Of a DNA stretch of 64,000 nt, positions 47,145-54,550 are shown in pieces; positions within the stretch are counted from its first letter, which is position 1, and each line of letters starts with the position of its first letter. The DNA is taken from positions 14,144-78,143 of the IMG/VR virus record IMGVR_UViG_3300023174_000138. The stretch is one strand, 5' to 3'. Position numbers and translations under genes: made by a program. The notes under the pieces are model-generated. The model did no database searches and was not told where the DNA came from. It worked only from the letters and a program-made list of their open reading frames with translations. The stretch comes from a virus.

Positions 47145-50100
47145 TTAAATAAGCCAGCCTTCAATTAATATAGAAGCTGAAAGTGTTGTAACTCCTGTAG
47201 CTGCAGGAGCAACTAATCTCAAAGCAATAACATCACCTGCATTGGTAATAATGTTATTTGTATTACCTGCAATATATGATCCATCTAGGATAGTGCCTGC
47301 TATGGAGGGTATATAGGCATTAGCTATACCGGTATTACTTTGAGTTGCGTCTACGAGCTTTAAAGTTGGCGCTACGGTTGTAGTTCCAGTTATGGCAGTA
47401 ATATAACCTCCAAATGTTTTACAAATAAACCTTCGTCCCGCGGGTACAGTAAATAGATTTGTATTTGTAGTTAGGGCACCAATTAAATTATAAGGCGAGT
47501 AGGAGATAGTAGTTAAAAGAGGATATGTTGTAAGTTGGTTTGCCGCAGCATTCCACCCAGCACTATTGGTATTTGTTGTTGTCCAGTCAGATGCCCAATC
47601 TTGACTACTCTTATGAGCATTAGTAGAAATTGTTCCGACTACAGTAAGTTTTTCATTAGGTGCTGTTGTGCCTATGCCAATATTACCTGCTGATGTTATA
47701 ATGAATATAGTAGAAGCATTACTTCCGCTAGTAACAGTAAACAAGTTAGATGCACTTGTGCTAGAGGATGCTGTTGTAATGGTTAAGCTGCCTTGCACTG
47801 AAGAATCTTTATATGATTTAAATCCTTGACCAAATGCAGCACCTCCTGCCACATCAAGATCATTTCCTATGACAGCATTTCTTATAATATATGCAGTATC
47901 TGTTGATAGCCCTCCTGCTTGTAATTGCTGTATATATGCTCCACCTAAATCAAGAACATTTATTCTATTATTAGCTCTATCAGCTAAATAGGCATATCTA
48001 CCTTGTATATCGAAATTACATGGCCAGGTAGAAGTGCCGCTATAGCTAGCTATGGATGCAACTAACCTAGGAGAAGATGGATTAGATACATCTATTTTAT
48101 GTAACCCAGCTAAATTAGAAAAATAAGCATAATTGCCTTGCAAAATAATGTTACTCAAATTTGTACTCCCTACAACAAAAGGTACAGGGATGTATGATGT
48201 AGTTGTACCGTTGTTTATTCCAAATTGATTATTAAAGTTCATGTAGAGGTACCTTCCTCTAACTATTGCACCATTTACTGCTCCTCCGGTAAAATAGAAC
48301 ATTTCAGCTGCAGGCTTACTTCTCGGATCAGATACATCCATTCTATATACCCCTGCAGTACCTGAGTACCCTCTAGCCCAGTACAAATATTTTCCTTGTA
48401 TTGTTAATCCGTTACTGTTTCCATTAGTACTCGTTTGTGTTATAAATATTTTTTCAGGCGCATATGGATTACTAATATCATACGCAATAATATACCCATC
48501 AACCGATGAGTTGTTAGTTAGAATAAATGCGTAGCTTCCTTGCACAACAACATCAAAAGCGTTTTGTGTCGTCCCTATGGTAGAGGTGCTTAGCAATTTA
48601 AAACTTGAGGGATTCTGAATTTCAAATATTTGAAATACACTACTTGATCCGTTACTAGTAACCACATAAGCATATTTGCCATTAACATACAGACCTTGTG
48701 GGTTAGAAGCGGTTGAAATCTTACCGGTACTAATTGGCGTGGTTTGTGTCAAGTCATAACTCATTAAAGACGCGTCACCGTAGTTTGTGACATACGCATA
48801 GTTACCTTGTATTTTAATATTAGATGTAGAAGAAGTGGCTGCAGCAGAAGCAGCAAACTTCATAGTACCTCTCACATCCACTGGTGCTACAGGTGCATTG
48901 GTATAAAAACCAGCATAACCTGATACAGGTTCAACATACATGCCAGTCATAGCAGATATAGGTGTTGTAGAGGTTATGCTACTAGGATTAGGACCTGCAT
49001 AAACACCACTTGCATAAGCAATGCCATTAGTGCTTAAAAAGCTTGTTACTGTAAAGCCGCCAAGACGAATATTATCTAACGTTTCATCAGCAATACGTCT
49101 GCCGGAGTATAATGCTCTATTAGTACCAGCATTTGCAAGAATTACAAATAAACCGTTACCGTATGCTGCAGCTTTGTATGTCTCAGCTTCTGTTCCTGTT
49201 TTAACCACCCATGTAATACCATCAAAAGAATACATCCACTTTGAACCTGAACTAGTAAGTGAGGCTGCAACAAACACTCCATCGCCATAAGCAACACTTT
49301 GCCAATTGCCTCCAGAAACGGCTCTAGAAGTCCATGTGATACCATCAGGTGAAGTCATTACACGACCACTTGTACCGGAACTTGCTACAGCGACAAATAT
49401 TCCATTGCCATAAGTAATACTATTCCATTGCTCTGATGCTGCAGCAGTTCTAATTGTCCAGGTGACGCCATCTGGTGACGTCATGACACGGTTTATCGCA
49501 GAAGGAGTGCCTGCAGTATTTGACACAGCAACATACAAACCATTGCCATATGTAACTGAGTTCCAGCTAGTAGCAGCTACAGCTACTGAAGTCCAGGTTA
49601 CACCATCTGGTGAGGTCATGACACGGCCATTGGCTACTGCCACAAACAAACCATTGCCATATGTAACACTGGTCCAGGCATATCCTTCAACAGTTCGCAC
49701 AGTCCAGTTAATGCCATCTGGAGAAGTCATTAAGCGGTTGCTGCCAGCATTAGCAACTGCTACAAACAAACCTCTGCCAAATGTCACGCTGGTCCAGTAA
49801 TTTGTAGTAATAGAACCACTATTCAATACCCAGTTTATACCGTCTCGTGAATATGCTATACCATAATCGATGGCTACAGCTACAAAAACTCCGTTACCAT
49901 ATGCTACACTATTCCATGCATAACTAGATGAAATAGAACCAGCGCTCCAATCTACACCTCGAATATAAGAGCTACTAGAAGCATTAGTAATTGTATAGAC
50001 TGATTCCCATTTACCGCTATTTGAATTGGTAGTGGTCCAGTTAGAATCGTACTTTGGAATATTATTATAAGCCGAATCCCAATTAGCACTATTAGTATTG

Positions 50101-50435
50101 GTTGTAGTGTAATTAGAATCGTATTTTGATATATTATTATAAGCCGAATCCCAATTAGCACTATTGGCTTTGCTAGAAGTATATACACTATCCCAATTAG
50201 CGCTATTGGCTTTAGCAGAACTATAAACACTATTCCAGTAACCGGAATTAGTATTGGTGGAGGTCCAATTAGAGTCGTATTTACTGGAGTTAGAATTAAA
50301 GGAAGTCCAATTAGAGTCGTATTTACTGGAGTTAGAATTAGTGGTAGTCCAGTTGGAGTTCCACTGATCACTATTACCGTTTACAGTACTAATTGTACTT
50401 ATAACTGTTACGTTATTAAGAAAAGGAATGCTCAT
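47145..50435 (-). CDS. Tail fibre / receptor-binding protein with N-terminal 14-aa repeats, a W.SV.YGNG propeller and an LVIVD-like propeller
   Basis: NSxxWDSxYT repeats; about seven WxSVxYGNGxFVAV...SPDGxTW blades; VQG.YAY blades; GNIGIGT.AP..KL motif. Confidence 0.75.
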   Translation of the reverse strand: MSIPFLNNVTVISTISTVNGNSDQWNSNWTTTNSNSSKYDSNWTSFNSNSSKYDSNWTSTNTNSGYWNSVYSSAKANSANWDSVYTSSKANSANWDSAYNNISKYDSNYTTTNTNSANWDSAYNNIPKYDSNWTTTNSNSGKWESVYTITNASSSSYIRGVDWSAGSISSSYAWNSVAYGNGVFVAVAIDYGIAYSRDGINWVLNSGSITTNYWTSVTFGRGLFVAVANAGSNRLMTSPDGINWTVRTVEGYAWTSVTYGNGLFVAVANGRVMTSPDGVTWTSVAVAATSWNSVTYGNGLYVAVSNTAGTPSAINRVMTSPDGVTWTIRTAAASEQWNSITYGNGIFVAVASSGTSGRVMTSPDGITWTSRAVSGGNWQSVAYGDGVFVAASLTSSGSKWMYSFDGITWVVKTGTEAETYKAAAYGNGLFVILANAGTNRALYSGRRIADETLDNIRLGGFTVTSFLSTNGIAYASGVYAGPNPSSITSTTPISAMTGMYVEPVSGYAGFYTNAPVAPVDVRGTMKFAASAAATSSTSNIKIQGNYAYVTNYGDASLMSYDLTQTTPISTGKISTASNPQGLYVNGKYAYVVTSNGSSSVFQIFEIQNPSSFKLLSTSTIGTTQNAFDVVVQGSYAFILTNNSSVDGYIIAYDISNPYAPEKIFITQTSTNGNSNGLTIQGKYLYWARGYSGTAGVYRMDVSDPRSKPAAEMFYFTGGAVNGAIVRGRYLYMNFNNQFGINNGTTTSYIPVPFVVGSTNLSNIILQGNYAYFSNLAGLHKIDVSNPSSPRLVASIASYSGTSTWPCNFDIQGRYAYLADRANNRINVLDLGGAYIQQLQAGGLSTDTAYIIRNAVIGNDLDVAGGAAFGQGFKSYKDSSVQGSLTITTASSSTSASNLFTVTSGSNASTIFIITSAGNIGIGTTAPNEKLTVVGTISTNAHKSSQDWASDWTTTNTNSAGWNAAANQLTTYPLLTTISYSPYNLIGALTTNTNLFTVPAGRRFICKTFGGYITAITGTTTVAPTLKLVDATQSNTGIANAYIPSIAGTILDGSYIAGNTNNIITNAGDVIALRLVAPAATGVTTLSASILIEGWLI
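49950..50370 (-). repeat. Coding tandem repeat with a 42-nt (14-aa) basic period
   Basis: GTCCAATTAGAGTCGTATTTACTGGAGTTAGAATTA is identical at 50263 and 50305; ATATTATTATAAGCCGAATCCCAATTAGCACTATT occurs twice. Confidence 0.85.
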
Positions 50436-53141
50436 TTATCCCTGATCTTCTGTCCATGCTATTTTTGATCTTGTCATAGCTATGTAATTATTATTAAGAT
50501 CATCAGGAGAACCAAATGTTTTTATACCAACAGTAACTACATCAGGGCCATCAGGAAATACATAATTACCTCCTAAAATACTATTAGTTAAATCTCTAAC
50601 TATATCTATATTAAATGTATTGTAACATAATTTTTGTGTTCCAATAGAACTAAAACTATTATCTGGAGTAAGCAAAAAGTATGCAATTAAATCGCCCCCA
50701 GTACCCTCAACGTTAAAAGTGCCGTCTCTTGTATGATCAAAATATTGAGCTATACTACCGTTTGGAGCTGAGCGCCAGGCTGATAAATTTTTGAAAAGCG
50801 TTTGAGGTTCGGGGTTTACTCTAACAAAAATTTGTATAGGCGCGGTAGACACGACTTGAATATTTCTTAACGCCAAAGAAGAATGGTTGACTACATTTCT
50901 TACACCTAGCAAACCGGTAATTCCATAGTCAACAGAAGGAGCTAACCTCACACTTAATAATGCTTGTTCAGCAGAAGTCGCAGAAAGCATAGTCGTGTTA
51001 AATGCAGAAAACAGATAAGATTTATCTTCATTGAAATTACCATCCATTAATGCAGCGACACCCCAATGACTTAACGCAGGAGAACAATTTTGATTGTATG
51101 ATATAACCCCGTCACCGCTTAATGCTGTGATATTACCGGTAGTAAGCCCTCCTACATTTCTTCTATTAATAGTTAGTTTAACCCCGTTAGAAACGGTTTC
51201 GGATTTAGTATAATAAATATACTCATTATTAATAACAATACAACCTTTATTAGGAAGATTTGCCCCTAAATCAGAATCTACTATTATAAATGAGGAATTA
51301 ACTTGTAAATCGCTTATTAAATTTCCGCTTTTTGAATTGCTTGTAATTTCAAACCGCCCAGGTACATTACCGGAACGCATATGCGCTTTTGTATTAACGT
51401 TGTTGTTATAAATTTCATGAAAATATATAATTTTACCTTCATTGGCTCTTATTCCATAACGTATTTTTCCAGCACCATACCAAGAATAGTCGATAAACAC
51501 CATTTGCATTCTATTAATATTAAAAATATAGCCGCTTGGACCAGTGCCATCTAGTTTATCTAGATTAAATTCGCTTTGAGGAATTCTTAATTCTTCTGTT
51601 TTAACTACTTTTAACCCTGAAGCACTAGGCCCTCTATAAGTAGGGGTTATAACTGCAGATAAATTATTGCGTATTGAAAATACTTGATATGACATTCCTT
51701 TAATTGATATAAAATCATTTTCTCTTAACTGTGTTAAAAACTTTGTATTATTATCAGTACTCACCATCCAAGAGCTACTTGCCGCAACAGTAATTGTACC
51801 GTTAATAGGGGTTGTGGTTTGTCGCTTTACAACATAGAACGACTTTCCGTCAAATTCAAAAAACATCCCATTTTGATCATCAAATAAACCGCTTCTCACG
51901 GTGGCATCATGCCACCCGTTGACGTCTACCGAGGCAATCCCGCCTGGGGCTAAATCAGATGTAGGAAAAGGATTATACACTGTATGCACTGGTATTTGTA
52001 CTTCAAATGTTTTAGAGTTTATAATTTTTGAAATTTTAAATGTTTGATTATAAGGGTTTTTACCCCCGCTTATGGTAAATCCGTTTGTTGTAATATTAAC
52101 GCCTTCTCTATAGGTTTCAGGTGTAGCAAAACCATGATATTGTTCCGTAGTTATTCTAAAATCATAATAAGGGTAAGTAATATCATTTTGATTAGAGTCT
52201 ATTACCTGGCTCGCTATTACTTCATAAACAGGTCTAAATAAAACTCCTGAACTAAATTGCATACTTTTACCAGATTGATATTTAAAATAATTTCTTGTTT
52301 GTCTCATAACCCTACAGTTAGGAGCGCTGGTACCGGGGTTAATTTGAACACCCCCGTCTTGAAATCTATGAATAGCTACCCCCTCTGTTCTTCCATATAC
52401 TTTACCGGAGGATGGTATTAATAGCGTACTTCTGCTAAAATTTTGACCTGTGAGTGTTTGAAAAATAATTTTTGTATCGCTGGGTACTGCACTAACAGAA
52501 AATGAACCGCACCATGGTGCGGTTGGTTGATTATTATCTACAACAATAATAGGACTATTAAGAAAAAGCCCATGAGGTGTTTGAAACTCTACTAGCGCTG
52601 CGCTTGTAGCTGGAATTGCTGATACCCCTACAATCGGTATATCAGCATTAGAATAAAAACCTCCTGTGTATAAACCTGTGTAAGCTGTCTTTTGATCACC
52701 AACTAATGCTCCAGGCGATTTGGTTAACACTTGAAATGAATATTCAGAAGGGACTTGCGTGATTATATAAGCTCCATCAACATATGTGGTATTCGCCGAA
52801 TCTTTTATTACTATCGAATCACCTACTTTAAACGCATTTCTAGGTAAAATATTTACTGTTACCGTTAAAAATTTATTATTTGCCCCGGAAGGAAGCATTG
52901 AAGTTATTTGACCTGCCGTAAATGCAGGTTCATTTGCTCTAGAATAAACACCAGGTAAGTTGCTAGCTAAATTTAAAAATTCCCACTTAGAAGCTTGTAA
53001 TGAATATTCAAAATCTGTGTCAATTAAGCTTTGCGGATTACTAACACGCAATTTTTCCACAGCATCTCTACCGGCATCATTGAATTTGATACCGTCTTCT
53101 ACTAGGTTCTGCAAGAACCCCGATTCTCTACTATATGGCAT
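50436..53141 (-). CDS. Large virion structural/fibre protein
   Basis: DA.EKLRVSNPQSLIDTDFEY, RQTR.YFKYQSGK, GLFDDQNG.FFE and IDYSWYGAG.IR motifs, as in T4-like virion proteins. Confidence 0.7.
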   Translation of the reverse strand: MPYSRESGFLQNLVEDGIKFNDAGRDAVEKLRVSNPQSLIDTDFEYSLQASKWEFLNLASNLPGVYSRANEPAFTAGQITSMLPSGANNKFLTVTVNILPRNAFKVGDSIVIKDSANTTYVDGAYIITQVPSEYSFQVLTKSPGALVGDQKTAYTGLYTGGFYSNADIPIVGVSAIPATSAALVEFQTPHGLFLNSPIIVVDNNQPTAPWCGSFSVSAVPSDTKIIFQTLTGQNFSRSTLLIPSSGKVYGRTEGVAIHRFQDGGVQINPGTSAPNCRVMRQTRNYFKYQSGKSMQFSSGVLFRPVYEVIASQVIDSNQNDITYPYYDFRITTEQYHGFATPETYREGVNITTNGFTISGGKNPYNQTFKISKIINSKTFEVQIPVHTVYNPFPTSDLAPGGIASVDVNGWHDATVRSGLFDDQNGMFFEFDGKSFYVVKRQTTTPINGTITVAASSSWMVSTDNNTKFLTQLRENDFISIKGMSYQVFSIRNNLSAVITPTYRGPSASGLKVVKTEELRIPQSEFNLDKLDGTGPSGYIFNINRMQMVFIDYSWYGAGKIRYGIRANEGKIIYFHEIYNNNVNTKAHMRSGNVPGRFEITSNSKSGNLISDLQVNSSFIIVDSDLGANLPNKGCIVINNEYIYYTKSETVSNGVKLTINRRNVGGLTTGNITALSGDGVISYNQNCSPALSHWGVAALMDGNFNEDKSYLFSAFNTTMLSATSAEQALLSVRLAPSVDYGITGLLGVRNVVNHSSLALRNIQVVSTAPIQIFVRVNPEPQTLFKNLSAWRSAPNGSIAQYFDHTRDGTFNVEGTGGDLIAYFLLTPDNSFSSIGTQKLCYNTFNIDIVRDLTNSILGGNYVFPDGPDVVTVGIKTFGSPDDLNNNYIAMTRSKIAWTEDQG

Positions 53142-54550
53142 TCACCCTATTGGACCAGGAGGCTCATCGCCCTCCATATAATCAACTCGATCCCAATATG
53201 CTCACAGATTACTCAGTGTTTGGACTATATCTTCAAATTATAAAATTTGTCGGACGCTCGTGCTGGTTATTAAGGCTTCCTATACCTCCAGTAGTCTCTA
53301 CACCTTCTAGAAAAGCGTTTCTAGCTTGGCTCGGTATTACCCACGACTTTCACGCCGGGCTTCACCGAATTCATCCGATAAGGGCGGTTATTTTTAAGTT
53401 AATCTTCTAGTGCAGTAAACCCTCCTCTCTGAAACCGTGTGGTGACAATTTTTGTGCGTTGCGCAAAAATAACTTTATCATATCCCCCTATACCTGTGTC
53501 TGCTTCTAGTTTACCTATTCTATATATTCTGCCTTTTTGTGACTCTTGCTTAAAAGGAGCAGGAGACCACCATTCTATACTGTTTATACCATCATCAGAA
53601 CCATTAATAGTTTTATATCCAAATTGTCCTAATTTTAATACTTCATTTAAAGGAGGCTCAGAGCCACCTCTTTTAGCATTTCCTCTTACTTTATTACTAA
53701 AAAATGTCCATACTATTTCAACAAAAACAATATCATAAGGCTTTAGAGGTATACCCTCAAAGCACCTAAATAGAAGCCCGTCTGATAAACAGGGTAATCT
53801 ACCGGAATTATTATTTCCCGTCTGCCATTTAAATCCTTCAGAGGATGGAATAACTCCTTCGGGTTTTATCTTAAGATCGGCATTTACATTTTGAATAGGC
53901 CATTTATTTAATTTATCAATACTATTATTTTTATAGTAAAATAGTTTAGTTATTGTTACTGTTGCGGGTAATTGAGGGGTGGCGGTTGTATATGGATTAG
54001 CTATATAAGTCCAGCTAACTTCATTTATAGTACTAGAATTACCTAGAGTATTATCTGTACTACTACTAAAAGCATTATCATACCAGGGATCTACATCATT
54101 TAGACGTGTCTGCCAAACCCAGCGAGTATTGGCTAGATCATATATTATTCTACTTCTACCACTTCCATTACTCGATTGCCATGTTTCTGCCCCATCAATT
54201 TTACTTTTAAAAGTAAAATCTTGATTTATGGTAATAAGTAAGCCAGCTACATTAATATCAACATTTATAGCGGTTTTTGAGGGGGTACTATCAAACCCAC
54301 CGTTACGTTGACCTTTTCTTGTTGCTAAATAAACAAATGTATTGTTTTCATATTTAAAAACGTAACGTCTTAAGGCTGTGTTTTTCGCTCGTTGCGCCGC
54401 TCTTGTGCTATTACCTTGTTTACCACTTCTCGATGCTGACTTACCTAGAGCGAGTTGGCCAGGGTAATAAGTACGTCTTGCTCCCTTATATACAGGTAAT
54501 AAAGCAGGTCTATCTTCGTTCCCTATAAACTTTCTATTATTGTTGTTCAT
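53142..54550 (-). CDS. Intron-containing hypothetical late protein: exon 1 54550-53419, exon 2 53200-53142 (396 aa spliced, 383 aa unspliced)
   Basis: Joining GGG-T to CA-TAT restores the frame as ...RGGSYWDRVDYMEGDEPPGPIG*, and its TGA abuts the ATG of the next gene. N-terminus is basic. Confidence 0.6.
53201..53418 (-). ncRNA. Group I self-splicing intron with no homing endonuclease ORF (3' splice site 53201 or 53194)
   Basis: Core elements on the minus strand: P AATTCGGTGAAG, Q AATACCGAGCCAAG, R GGTGTAGAGACTA, S GAAGATATAGTCC. Helices: P3 TCGGATG/CGTCCGA, P4 TTCGGT/ACCGAG, P5 GCCC/GGGT, P6a CTAGAA/TTCTAG, P7 GACTA/TAGTC, P7.1 CTGG..CCAG, P8 CAAATT/AATTTG, P9 with a GTAA loop, and P1 GAGGGT/GCCCTT with a U-G pair. 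Confidence 0.9.

What the first reader, a model, noticed from the sequence alone, without database searches (positions are those of the whole stretch)
53194..53425. Unannotated compact group I intron in the fibre cluster, near the 3' end of a late gene
Seen in sequence: the apparent 257-nt gap between two minus-strand ORFs holds a complete group I ribozyme core. P, Q, R and S elements are AATTCGGTGAAG, AATACCGAGCCAAG, GGTGTAGAGACTA and GAAGATATAGTCC. Helix positions are P3 53378-53372/53256-53250, P4 53369-53364/53335-53330, P7 53296-53292/53227-53223, P8 53249-53234 and a GTAA-capped P9, with an extra P7.1 stem. The guide GCCCTT (53385-53380) pairs with GAGGGT of the upstream ORF and places a U-G pair at 53419. 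An in-frame TAA lies early in the intron, as in T4 td. There is no P2 and no homing endonuclease ORF. Established: phage group I introns are best known in DNA-metabolism genes (td, nrdB, nrdD) and are often mobilised by endonucleases. Inference: an intact ORF-less intron a few codons before the end of an uncharacterised late gene is unusual. With the terminal G at 53201 the product ends ...RGGSYWDRVDYMEGDEPPGPIG*. With the terminal G at 53194, which gives a better P9.0 (AA/TT), it ends ...RGGWIELIIWRAMSLLVQ*.
Basis: partly seen in the sequence, partly recalled or inferred. Interest (0 to 1): 0.85.

Follow-up and report, generated by a model that had tools for sequence, protein, structure and literature searches.

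The report
Back-to-front group I ribozyme between phage genes
The self-splicing-type (group I) RNA enzyme is real, but it interrupts no gene: it lies between two phage virion genes with its guide in front and its cut site behind, so it most likely cuts the message just before the next gene and may release a small RNA ring.

Summary
The group I ribozyme core is real: Rfam RF00028 scores 64.1 bits against a cut-off of 50, and its helices covary across 16 relatives. The intron reading fails. All 47 aligned homologues of the 383-aa protein end in the same RGG-x-TALE tail as the unspliced ORF, and those codons vary synonymously. Every related locus with enough downstream DNA (about 18) carries the ribozyme 10-20 nt after that stop codon.

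The guide (GCCC, 53385-53382) does not pair with a conserved upstream exon. Ten of 16 loci have no possible partner within 150 nt. It pairs instead with A-GGGU-N just before the next gene's ATG. This is a 5-bp helix with an invariant U-G wobble and compensatory changes at two positions.

It lies upstream of that cut site, so the splice sites are in reverse order.

Predicted reaction (not shown):
- GTP attacks after U53144, two bases before the 901-aa gene's start. This leaves a near-leaderless mRNA, like the phage's promoter-made late mRNAs.
- Bases 53193-53144 may then close into a 50-nt circle.

I found this layout in print only for engineered RNAs, group II introns and one coral mitochondrial intron. 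This scan has noted it before on other phage DNA.

The parts
53399..54550 (-). Gene A, 383 aa: an uninterrupted beta-rich protein of unknown function. It ends ...RGGFTALED followed by TAA (53401-53399).
   Evidence: ORF. There are 54 homologues, and all 47 aligned ones share the same C-terminal tail. The AlphaFold model has pLDDT 76 and no fold match. No Pfam or PHROG hit.
53387..53398 (-). A/T-rich spacer between the gene A stop codon and the guide.
   Evidence: The spacer is 10-20 nt in the 15 loci measured cleanly, and the stop codon is always TAA (the L046 row of that script was unreliable).
53381..53386 (-). Guide strand (IGS) of the P1-like closing helix: C53386, G53385 (wobble G), C, C, C53382, U53381.
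   Evidence: It pairs with 53143-53148. The guide is separated from P3 by 2-3 nt, with no P2.
53194..53386 (-). Ribozyme proper, from guide to terminal G. The guide G (53385) to the terminal G is 192 nt here and 190-202 nt in relatives.
   Evidence: Rfam hit, covariation, lengths.
53250..53378 (-). P3 (53378-53372 with 53256-50), enclosing P4 (53368-63 with 53336-31), P5 (53359-57 with 53342-40), P6/P6a (53330-53302), the P7 5' strand (53296-92) and P7.1 with its inner stem (53291-53263).
   Evidence: Sequence. Pair counts: P3, P6a and the inner P7.1 stem have changes on both sides; P7 and P4 are almost invariant.
53223..53249 (-). P8 hairpin (53249-53234), J8/7, and the P7 3' strand (53227-53223).
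   Evidence: All five P8 pairs covary.
53194..53221 (-). P9.0 (A53221, A53220 with U53195, U53196), the GUAA-capped P9 (53218-53203), and the terminal G53194, which marks the 3' splice site.
   Evidence: P9.0 is paired in 32 of 32 cells. The combinations are GA/UC x8, AA/UU x5, GA/UU, GC/GU and AC/GU. Only 3 of 20000 shuffles do as well.
53144..53193 (-). Non-coding segment between the 3' splice site and the cut site (50 nt), the predicted circular product. It contains a stem (53193-89 with 53156-52) and a hairpin (53175-71 with 53162-58).
   Evidence: Fold. In relatives it is 20-93 nt, structured and not coding. Its first base pairs with the base before the guide in 14 of 16 loci, which is P10-like.
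53143..53148 (-). Target strand of the P1-like helix, A-GGGU-G. The predicted cut lies between U53144 and G53143.
   Evidence: five contiguous pairs in 16 of 16 loci and the U-G wobble in 16 of 16. The position 3' of the wobble is G-C x12, U-A x3 and C-G x1. The inner pair is C-G x15 and G-C x1. None of 20000 shuffles does as well.
50436..53141 (-). Gene B, 901 aa, a virion structural protein with ATG at 53141. It has no late-promoter motif and no Shine-Dalgarno sequence of its own.
   Evidence: phrog_5838, E 1.6e-159. Homologue of cyanomyovirus virion proteins such as S-PM2 p175. Upstream sequence.
53419..53424 (-). It is probably a fortuitous second partner for the guide in this genome.
   Evidence: Present at this position only in the window and L067.

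Best explanation
This is a guide-first (circularly permuted at the P1 loop) group I ribozyme, fixed in the gap between two virion genes of an uncultured myovirus.

Layout on the late transcript: gene A stop codon, 12-nt A-rich spacer, guide (53386-53381), catalytic core P3-P9, terminal G53194 (3' splice site), a 50-nt folded non-coding piece, target strand A-GGGU-G (53148-53143), then GA and the ATG of gene B.

Inferred mechanism:
1. The guide pairs with the downstream target to form P1. Free GTP or guanosine attacks after U53144. This detaches the gene B-gene C message, which now carries an added G and only two further bases before its AUG. That 5' end resembles the leaderless late mRNAs this phage seems to make from promoters placed 3-10 nt before start codons.
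2. The terminal G docks through P9.0, and the new 3'-OH of U53144 attacks after G53194. This closes 53193-53144 into a 50-nt circle, makes the cut irreversible, and leaves gene A mRNA with the ribozyme as its 3' end.

Shown here: the layout and its conservation. Not shown: the chemistry and the effect on translation.
For: - Core: RF00028 at 64.1 bits. Structure kept in 16 relatives with 24 compensated pairs, 0 of 500 shuffles as good, and slid controls at 32-44% paired against 97.4%.
- Gene A is whole: conserved protein tail and synonymous codon variation.
- Fixed position: the ribozyme is present after the stop codon in all 7 IMG/VR loci and all 10 metagenome loci with enough DNA, down to 35% protein identity. 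A duplicated gene A-ribozyme-gene B module occurs in one phage (L046).
- Guide:target helix: 16 of 16 loci, U-G wobble invariant, compensatory changes at two positions, 0 of 20000 shuffles as good. An unconstrained MFE fold also forms it.
- Terminal G and P9.0: 32 of 32 pairs in five combinations. The terminal G lies 20-93 nt upstream of the target strand.
- P10-like pair: 14 of 16 loci.
- No upstream partner in 10 of 16 loci.
- Cut-to-AUG distance is 0-12 nt, mostly 0-3.
- About half of the window's ORFs have an ATAAATA motif ending 3-10 nt before the ATG and no Shine-Dalgarno sequence. Gene B has neither.
Against: - No RNA or biochemical data, so neither cleavage, G addition nor a circle has been seen for this family.
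- P1 is short (5-6 bp) and only four loci carry the informative substitutions. Relatedness of the sequences inflates shuffle statistics.
- In this window an upstream GAGGGT can also pair with the guide, so some conventional 5' cleavage is possible here.
- In three relatives the cut site is 7-12 nt from the AUG, which is less clearly leaderless.
- The transcription start distance for ATAAATA promoters is recalled from T4 and was not measured here.
- The host is unknown.
Confidence: 0.65

Rival explanations
1. One reading: a conventional intron in the last codons of gene A. The 5' splice site lies after U53419 and the 3' splice site after G53194 or G53201, and splicing replaces the FTALED tail.
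For: In this window GAGGGU (53424-53419) forms 6 pairs with the guide, including a terminal U-G. With G53201 the frame runs to a TGA that abuts the gene B ATG.
Against: - The TALE tail is conserved as protein in all 47 aligned homologues, with synonymous codon changes.
- GGGT at the Arg-Gly-Gly codons occurs in only 2 of 16 loci, and some loci have no U there.
- The proposed exon-2 peptides are not conserved. The region has stops and a varying phase.
- G53201 has no P9.0 support, whereas G53194 does.
Confidence: 0.06
2. A conventional but intergenic intron. An unrecognised 5' splice site lies in the A-rich spacer or the last codons of gene A. Splicing at G53194 removes the core and brings gene A's stop codon close to gene B for translational coupling. 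In this model the guide:GGGU helix serves another purpose.
For: The spacer length is constrained to 10-20 nt and the stop codon is always TAA. The terminal G and P9.0 are intact. Genes in this operon otherwise abut.
Against: - No conserved U-containing element upstream can pair with the only guide-like sequence before P3.
- After such splicing, 22-95 nt of folded RNA would still separate the two genes.
- The invariant U-G wobble with covariation on both sides marks the downstream site as the reactive helix.
Confidence: 0.1
3. A catalytically silent relic, kept as a folded RNA. It might act as a 3' stabiliser of gene A mRNA, a barrier to ribosomes, or a fold that hides or presents the gene B start.
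For: The element is fixed in position and its ends pair, as expected for a structural insulator. Related ribozymes sit at the 3' end of genes that converge with the next gene (L031, L044).
Against: - The parts needed only for chemistry are the most conserved. P7 with its G-binding site, J8/7 and J4/5 are invariant. The U-G wobble is present in 16 of 16 loci. The terminal G and P9.0 covary.
- A mere scaffold would not need them.
Confidence: 0.12
4. Cleavage only. The first step, or hydrolysis at a splice site, happens, but no circle forms. The terminal G is used only for folding or for 3' splice-site hydrolysis.
For: The segment between the two sites is poorly conserved and can be as short as 20-24 nt, which is tight for circularisation. 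P10 is essentially a single pair.
Against: P9.0 covariation and the P10-like pair (14 of 16; 102 of 20000 shuffles as good) argue that the second step is under selection.
Confidence: 0.2

Closest known systems
Canonical small phage group I introns with P7.1 (T4 td, nrdB, nrdD type; subgroup IA, recalled from memory), and canonical relatives found here (tRNA-gene intron L016, ribonucleotide-reductase intron L029)
   Same: Same Rfam family and the same core sequence motifs. The 21-nt R-element word is shared exactly. They share P3-P9 with P7.1, a GGGU:GCC-type P1, a terminal G with P9.0, and the lack of an ORF.
   Different: In canonical members the guide's partner lies 5-14 nt upstream and the element interrupts a gene. 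Here the partner lies after the 3' splice site, no gene is interrupted, and the element is fixed rather than sporadic.
Engineered permuted intron-exon (PIE) group I constructs used to make circular RNA
   Same: The 3' splice site precedes the 5' splice site on the transcript, so the normal two steps would circularise what lies between them.
   Different: PIE constructs are man-made. As I recall, they are opened in a peripheral loop such as P6 or P8, so the ribozyme is in two halves. Here the opening is in the P1 loop, the core is one piece, and the trailing 'half-intron' is a whole mRNA.
Corallimorpharian mitochondrial ND5-717 intron (Chi et al. 2019, PMC6545197)
   Same: [quoted passage not shown] The paper calls it the first such report.
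   Different: That intron still interrupts a gene (ND5), is 18-19 kb long, and owes its permutation to how a circular genome is transcribed. The phage element is about 250 nt, intergenic, and permuted in the DNA.
Circularly permuted group II ribozymes of bacteria (Roth et al. 2021, PMC8637638)
   Same: A self-splicing ribozyme with splice sites in reverse order, less than 100 nt apart. It yields small, poorly conserved circles (15-86 nt there, 20-93 nt predicted here), and its biological role is unknown.
   Different: A different ribozyme class and chemistry (branching adenosine rather than exogenous G). It is not tied to the start codon of a downstream gene.
Clostridioides difficile c-di-GMP-dependent allosteric group I ribozyme (as reviewed in PMC3984707)
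   Same: A domesticated group I ribozyme in a 5' untranslated region. Its choice of G-attack site decides whether the downstream start codon is usable.
   Different: That ribozyme has an aptamer and a true upstream 5' splice site, and it creates or removes a ribosome-binding site. No aptamer is detected here, and translation appears to be leaderless.
GIR1 lariat-capping ribozyme
   Same: A group I-derived ribozyme that processes the 5' end of the downstream mRNA instead of splicing (mentioned in PMC8637638).
   Different: GIR1 has a remodelled core and catalyses branching. This RNA scores as an ordinary group I core, and no other Rfam family matched the region at E up to 5 apart from two eukaryotic small-RNA families far below their cut-offs.

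Membership tests
Group I ribozyme (Rfam RF00028) | Covariance-model score above the curated gathering score | tested here: met
   64.1 bits against 50. Relatives score 61-78 bits.
Group I ribozyme (Rfam RF00028) | Core helices P3-P9 with the P3/P7 pseudoknot, supported by covariation | tested here: met
   54 pairs, 97.4% paired, 24 with changes on both sides, 0 of 500 shuffles as good.
Group I ribozyme (Rfam RF00028) | Terminal G positioned by P9.0 | tested here: met
   G53194. P9.0 is paired in 32 of 32 cells, in five combinations.
Group I ribozyme (Rfam RF00028) | P1 helix between the guide and a strand ending in U, with a U-G wobble at the reactive site | tested here: met
   Met, but the U strand is 3' of the core. 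16 of 16 loci, with covariation at two positions.
Group I intron (an intervening sequence) | Interrupts a gene, whose flanking exons are joined to restore the gene product | tested here: not met
   Gene A ends at its conserved stop codon. Gene B starts at its own ATG, at a variable, non-triplet distance from the cut site. The piece between the splice sites is non-coding.
Group I intron (an intervening sequence) | 5' splice site upstream of the core | tested here: not met
   No partner tetramer within 150 nt upstream in 10 of 16 loci.
Mobile group I intron | Homing endonuclease ORF, or sporadic presence and absence among close relatives | tested here: not met
   No ORF inside. Present in every related locus with enough downstream DNA.
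Permuted (back-splicing) self-splicing ribozyme | 3' splice site precedes the 5' splice site on one transcript | tested here: met
   The terminal G lies 20-93 nt upstream of the U of the P1 target strand in 16 of 16 loci.
Permuted (back-splicing) self-splicing ribozyme | Circular product with the predicted junction; G-dependent cleavage | not testable with these tools
   This needs RNA data or an in vitro reaction. A junction word searched in DNA viral contigs gave only chance matches.
GIR1 lariat-capping ribozyme / riboswitch-coupled ribozyme | Match to the GIR1 model, or an adjoining aptamer | tested here: not met
   In 53050-53500 at E up to 5, only RF00028 gave a meaningful match. The other two were eukaryotic small-RNA families far below their cut-offs.

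The most novel reading that the evidence does not exclude
The ribozyme has taken over the job of a promoter. Using cellular GTP as the attacking nucleotide, it makes a triphosphate-G, near-leaderless 5' end for the gene B-gene C virion message out of a longer transcript. This ties translation of these late proteins to RNA folding and GTP supply. The back-spliced circle serves to make the cut irreversible, or has a function of its own. If so, this would be a natural, widespread phage class of permuted group I ribozymes with a gene-expression role.
Probability: 0.3. Interest if true: 0.9.

Novelty: new variant of a known kind. Interest (0 to 1): 0.8.

Why it matters
Group I ribozymes are textbook selfish introns. 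Only two natural cases of re-use are well known: the C. difficile allosteric ribozyme and the lariat-capping ribozyme. A ribozyme that is fixed between two virion genes, whose splice sites are kept in reverse order by compensatory mutations, and which is aimed at the base just before a start codon would be a third kind of domestication.

It would also be the group I counterpart of the permuted group II ribozymes, whose role is still unknown. Here the genomic setting (leaderless late genes, no promoter for gene B) suggests a testable role.

It would be a natural version of the design used to manufacture circular RNA. For annotation, it shows that a strong RF00028 hit next to a stop codon should not be read as a split gene.

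Tried and rejected
- **Read-through or fusion of the two ORFs.** The distance from GGGU to the ATG is not a multiple of three across loci, so they are separate genes. The N-terminal 80 residues of the cyanophage homologues do not match gene A.
- **Pairing between gene A's stop-codon region and an internal loop of the 3' domain.** It looked convincing by eye in several loci. Cognate pairs fold no better than non-cognate pairs (-5.3 against -4.8 kcal/mol), and z-scores against shuffles are weak. Dropped.
- **Shine-Dalgarno role for AAGGGU.** Spacing to the AUG varies from 0 to 12 nt, so this was rejected.
- **Circle-junction word of the L007 subgroup in viral contigs.** 19 hits, all unrelated chance matches.
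- **Function of gene A.** Pfam, PHROGs, tblastn against phage records and Foldseek (PDB, BFVD) gave nothing.
- **Megablast of the locus against GenBank phages.** No match.
The DNA of the closest homologues (P0004 at 95%, P0005 at 64%) could not be read.
- **Own covariance model.** Not built, because the forecast calibration time for a model of about 300 positions exceeds the limit.
- **Genome-contig scan with the core word.** It found 7 MAG contigs, probably binned phage DNA, and gave no host clue.

Full report
**What is in the sequence.** Two minus-strand ORFs, of 383 aa (53399-54550, gene A) and 901 aa (50436-53141, gene B), are separated by 257 nt. Rfam's group I model matches 53441-53202 on the minus strand at 64.1 bits (gathering score 50, E 6e-14). 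This is the only such match in the 78-kb viral contig that holds the window. There is no P2 and no internal ORF. The window is from a myovirus, with tail sheath, baseplate wedge and major head protein genes. Gene B belongs to phrog_5838, 'virion structural protein' (E 1.6e-159), and is related to virion proteins of cyanomyoviruses such as S-PM2 p175. Gene A has no family or fold match. Its model is beta-rich with pLDDT 76.

**Gene A is not interrupted.** The 383-aa protein has 54 homologues. All 47 that I aligned end in Arg/Lys-Gly-Gly-x-Thr-Ala/Val-Leu-Glu/Asp followed by a stop. This is the tail the window's ORF has without any splicing. In the DNA of relatives these last codons differ by synonymous or conservative changes (ACA/ACT, GCA/GCG/GTA, CTA/TTA). 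That is the signature of coding sequence. The 'early in-frame TAA' is therefore the gene's own stop codon.

**The ribozyme is always there.** Protein-guided searches recovered 7 IMG/VR loci and 11 usable metagenome loci with 35-52% protein identity to gene A. Sixteen have RF00028 hits of 65-78 bits starting just after the stop codon, and a seventeenth has a truncated hit at a contig end. The eighteenth (L072) has a contig that stops 56 nt after the stop codon, so nothing can be said for it. I saw no ribozyme-free arrangement. One phage carries a second, diverged copy of the whole gene A-ribozyme-gene B module (L046). A mobile intron would be sporadic, whereas this element is fixed.

**Where the guide pairs.** The only guide-like sequence before P3 is GCCC (53385-82). 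In the window it can pair with GAGGGU in the Arg-Gly-Gly codons. Relatives have GGAGGU, GGAGGA or GGAGCA at that position. Only 2 of 16 loci have the needed tetramer there, and 10 of 16 have none within 150 nt upstream. Every locus instead has A-GGGU-N 0-12 nt before the ATG of gene B. The helix N'-GCC-X with X'-GGU-N is formed in 16 of 16 loci, and the U-G wobble is invariant. The pair on the 3' side of the wobble is G-C in 12 loci, U-A in 3 and C-G in the window. The inner pair switches from C-G to G-C in the most distant locus, L070. None of 20000 cross-locus shuffles reaches the observed 32 of 32 (also helix 1). An unconstrained fold of 53400-53130 forms the same helix. A wobble U-G flanked by pairs on both sides, opposite the guide, is the hallmark of the reactive P1 helix. 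Here its U strand comes after the core.

**The 3' splice site comes first.** The first G after an invariant U, 7-11 nt past P9, is preceded by two bases that pair with the first two bases of J7/9 in all 16 loci. The combinations are GA/UC x8, AA/UU x5, GA/UU, GC/GU and AC/GU, and only 3 of 20000 shuffles do as well. The base after the terminal G pairs with the base before the guide in 14 of 16 loci, which is P10-like.

The order on the RNA is therefore guide, core, 3' splice site, a short piece, 5'-type splice site. From guide to terminal G is a constant 190-202 nt. The piece in between is 20-93 nt (50 in the window), folds into covarying stems, has stops in every phase and encodes no conserved peptide.

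**Context that suggests a purpose.** About half of the window's ORFs carry a T4-late-promoter-like ATAAATA ending 3-10 nt before the ATG and lack a Shine-Dalgarno sequence. The predicted cut after U53144 would leave an added G plus GA before its AUG. In relatives the distance is 0-3 nt in 12 of 16 loci. Group I ribozymes accept GTP as the attacking nucleotide (established knowledge). The product could therefore carry a 5' triphosphate like a primary transcript.

**Most likely mechanism.**
- *Shown:* the layout and its conservation.
- *Inferred:* P1 forms between 53386-81 and 53148-43. GTP attacks after U53144 and frees the gene B-gene C message. The terminal G53194 then docks, and U53144 attacks after it. 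This closes 53193-53144 into a circle, makes the cut irreversible, and leaves gene A mRNA ending in the folded ribozyme.
- *My odds:* about 0.85 for the permuted layout, 0.65 for cleavage at that site, about 0.5 for circle formation, and 0.3-0.4 for the leaderless-mRNA role.

**Rivals.**
It cannot be the conserved function.
- An intergenic intron with a hidden upstream splice site lacks any conserved partner.
- A silent structural relic does not explain why the chemically relevant parts (P7, J8/7, the wobble, the terminal G with P9.0) are the best kept.
- Cleavage without circularisation remains quite possible.

**Comparison with what is known.** Canonical relatives sharing the same 21-nt core word sit in a tRNA gene and a ribonucleotide reductase gene, with their P1 partner 5-14 nt upstream. 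Reverse-order splice sites are known from three settings:
- engineered PIE constructs;
- permuted group II ribozymes (PMC8637638);
- the coral mitochondrial ND5-717 intron, described as the first natural back-splicing group I intron (PMC6545197).

Domesticated group I ribozymes that act on a downstream message are known from C. difficile (PMC3984707) and GIR1. Five full-text searches found no description of a phage or bacterial guide-first group I ribozyme. The library lacks most subscription journals, so this is not proof of absence.

**Wider picture.** Among the 50 loci sharing the core word, other sequence classes show the same ends-paired layout in other gene contexts. These were read by eye and are not fully worked out:
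- L027/L033 type: GGCCC with GGGUC.
- L018 type: GCCU with AGGU.
- L020/L025 type: 12-20-bp closing helices.
- L031/L044: at the 3' end of a gene that converges with the next.

Notes from earlier follow-ups of this scan on other genomes reach the same reading. I saw them after forming mine (notes) and count them as agreement, not evidence.

**Limits.** All evidence is comparative, with no RNA or biochemical evidence.

Noticed in passing
window, whole (e.g. starts at 1248-, 5020-, 6774+, 9938+, 10516+, 12325+, 18560-, 20603-, 42074+, 43544+, 56469-, 58978-): At least 19 of 38 ORFs have a T4-late-promoter-like (N)ATAAATA ending only 3-10 nt before the start codon, and no Shine-Dalgarno sequence. 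The late mRNAs of this phage are probably leaderless.
   Followed up: partly
L046:11808-12043 (-), same IMG/VR contig as L009/L041: One phage carries two diverged copies of the whole module: a gene A paralogue ending ...RGGNTVYR, then the ribozyme, then a gene B paralogue. The second copy's inter-splice-site piece is only 20 nt.
   Followed up: partly
L027, L033, L018, L013, L020, L025, L031, L044 (IMG/VR loci): Other sequence classes of the same ribozyme family also pair their 5' guide region with a site behind the core, in unrelated gene contexts. Some are preceded by TATAAATA about 20-25 nt upstream. Some sit at the 3' end of a gene that converges with its neighbour. L020 and L025 have 12-20-bp closing helices.
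   Followed up: partly
window 53419-53430 and the same codons in L005-L070: The Arg/Lys-Gly-Gly codons near the end of gene A are almost always AGA/AAA GGA GGN. This gives a conserved GGAGG, a perfect Shine-Dalgarno-like word, about 35 nt before the guide. I have no explanation for this codon choice.
   Followed up: no
L007:699-1200, L066:199-700, L068:311-800: Relatives encode a tmRNA (84-87 bits) and an adjacent tRNA about 2.5-3 kb upstream of gene A, on the opposite strand.
   Followed up: no
window 47145-50435 (-): The 1096-aa gene after gene B starts on the TAA-ATG overlap with gene B. It has EPTP and LVIVD beta-propeller repeats, so it is a likely receptor-binding or fibre protein.
   Followed up: no
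L033, about 37 nt after the S element: In L033 the guide region is also complementary, over 11 bp, to the 3' side of P9 including a GGGU-C. This is a possible alternative, inhibitory pairing, and it is weaker in its close relative L027.
   Followed up: no
L072:3457-3513: This is the only related locus where no ribozyme could be called. Its contig ends 56 nt after the gene A stop codon, and the few bases present resemble the P3 start of another ribozyme class. Nothing can be concluded.
   Followed up: no
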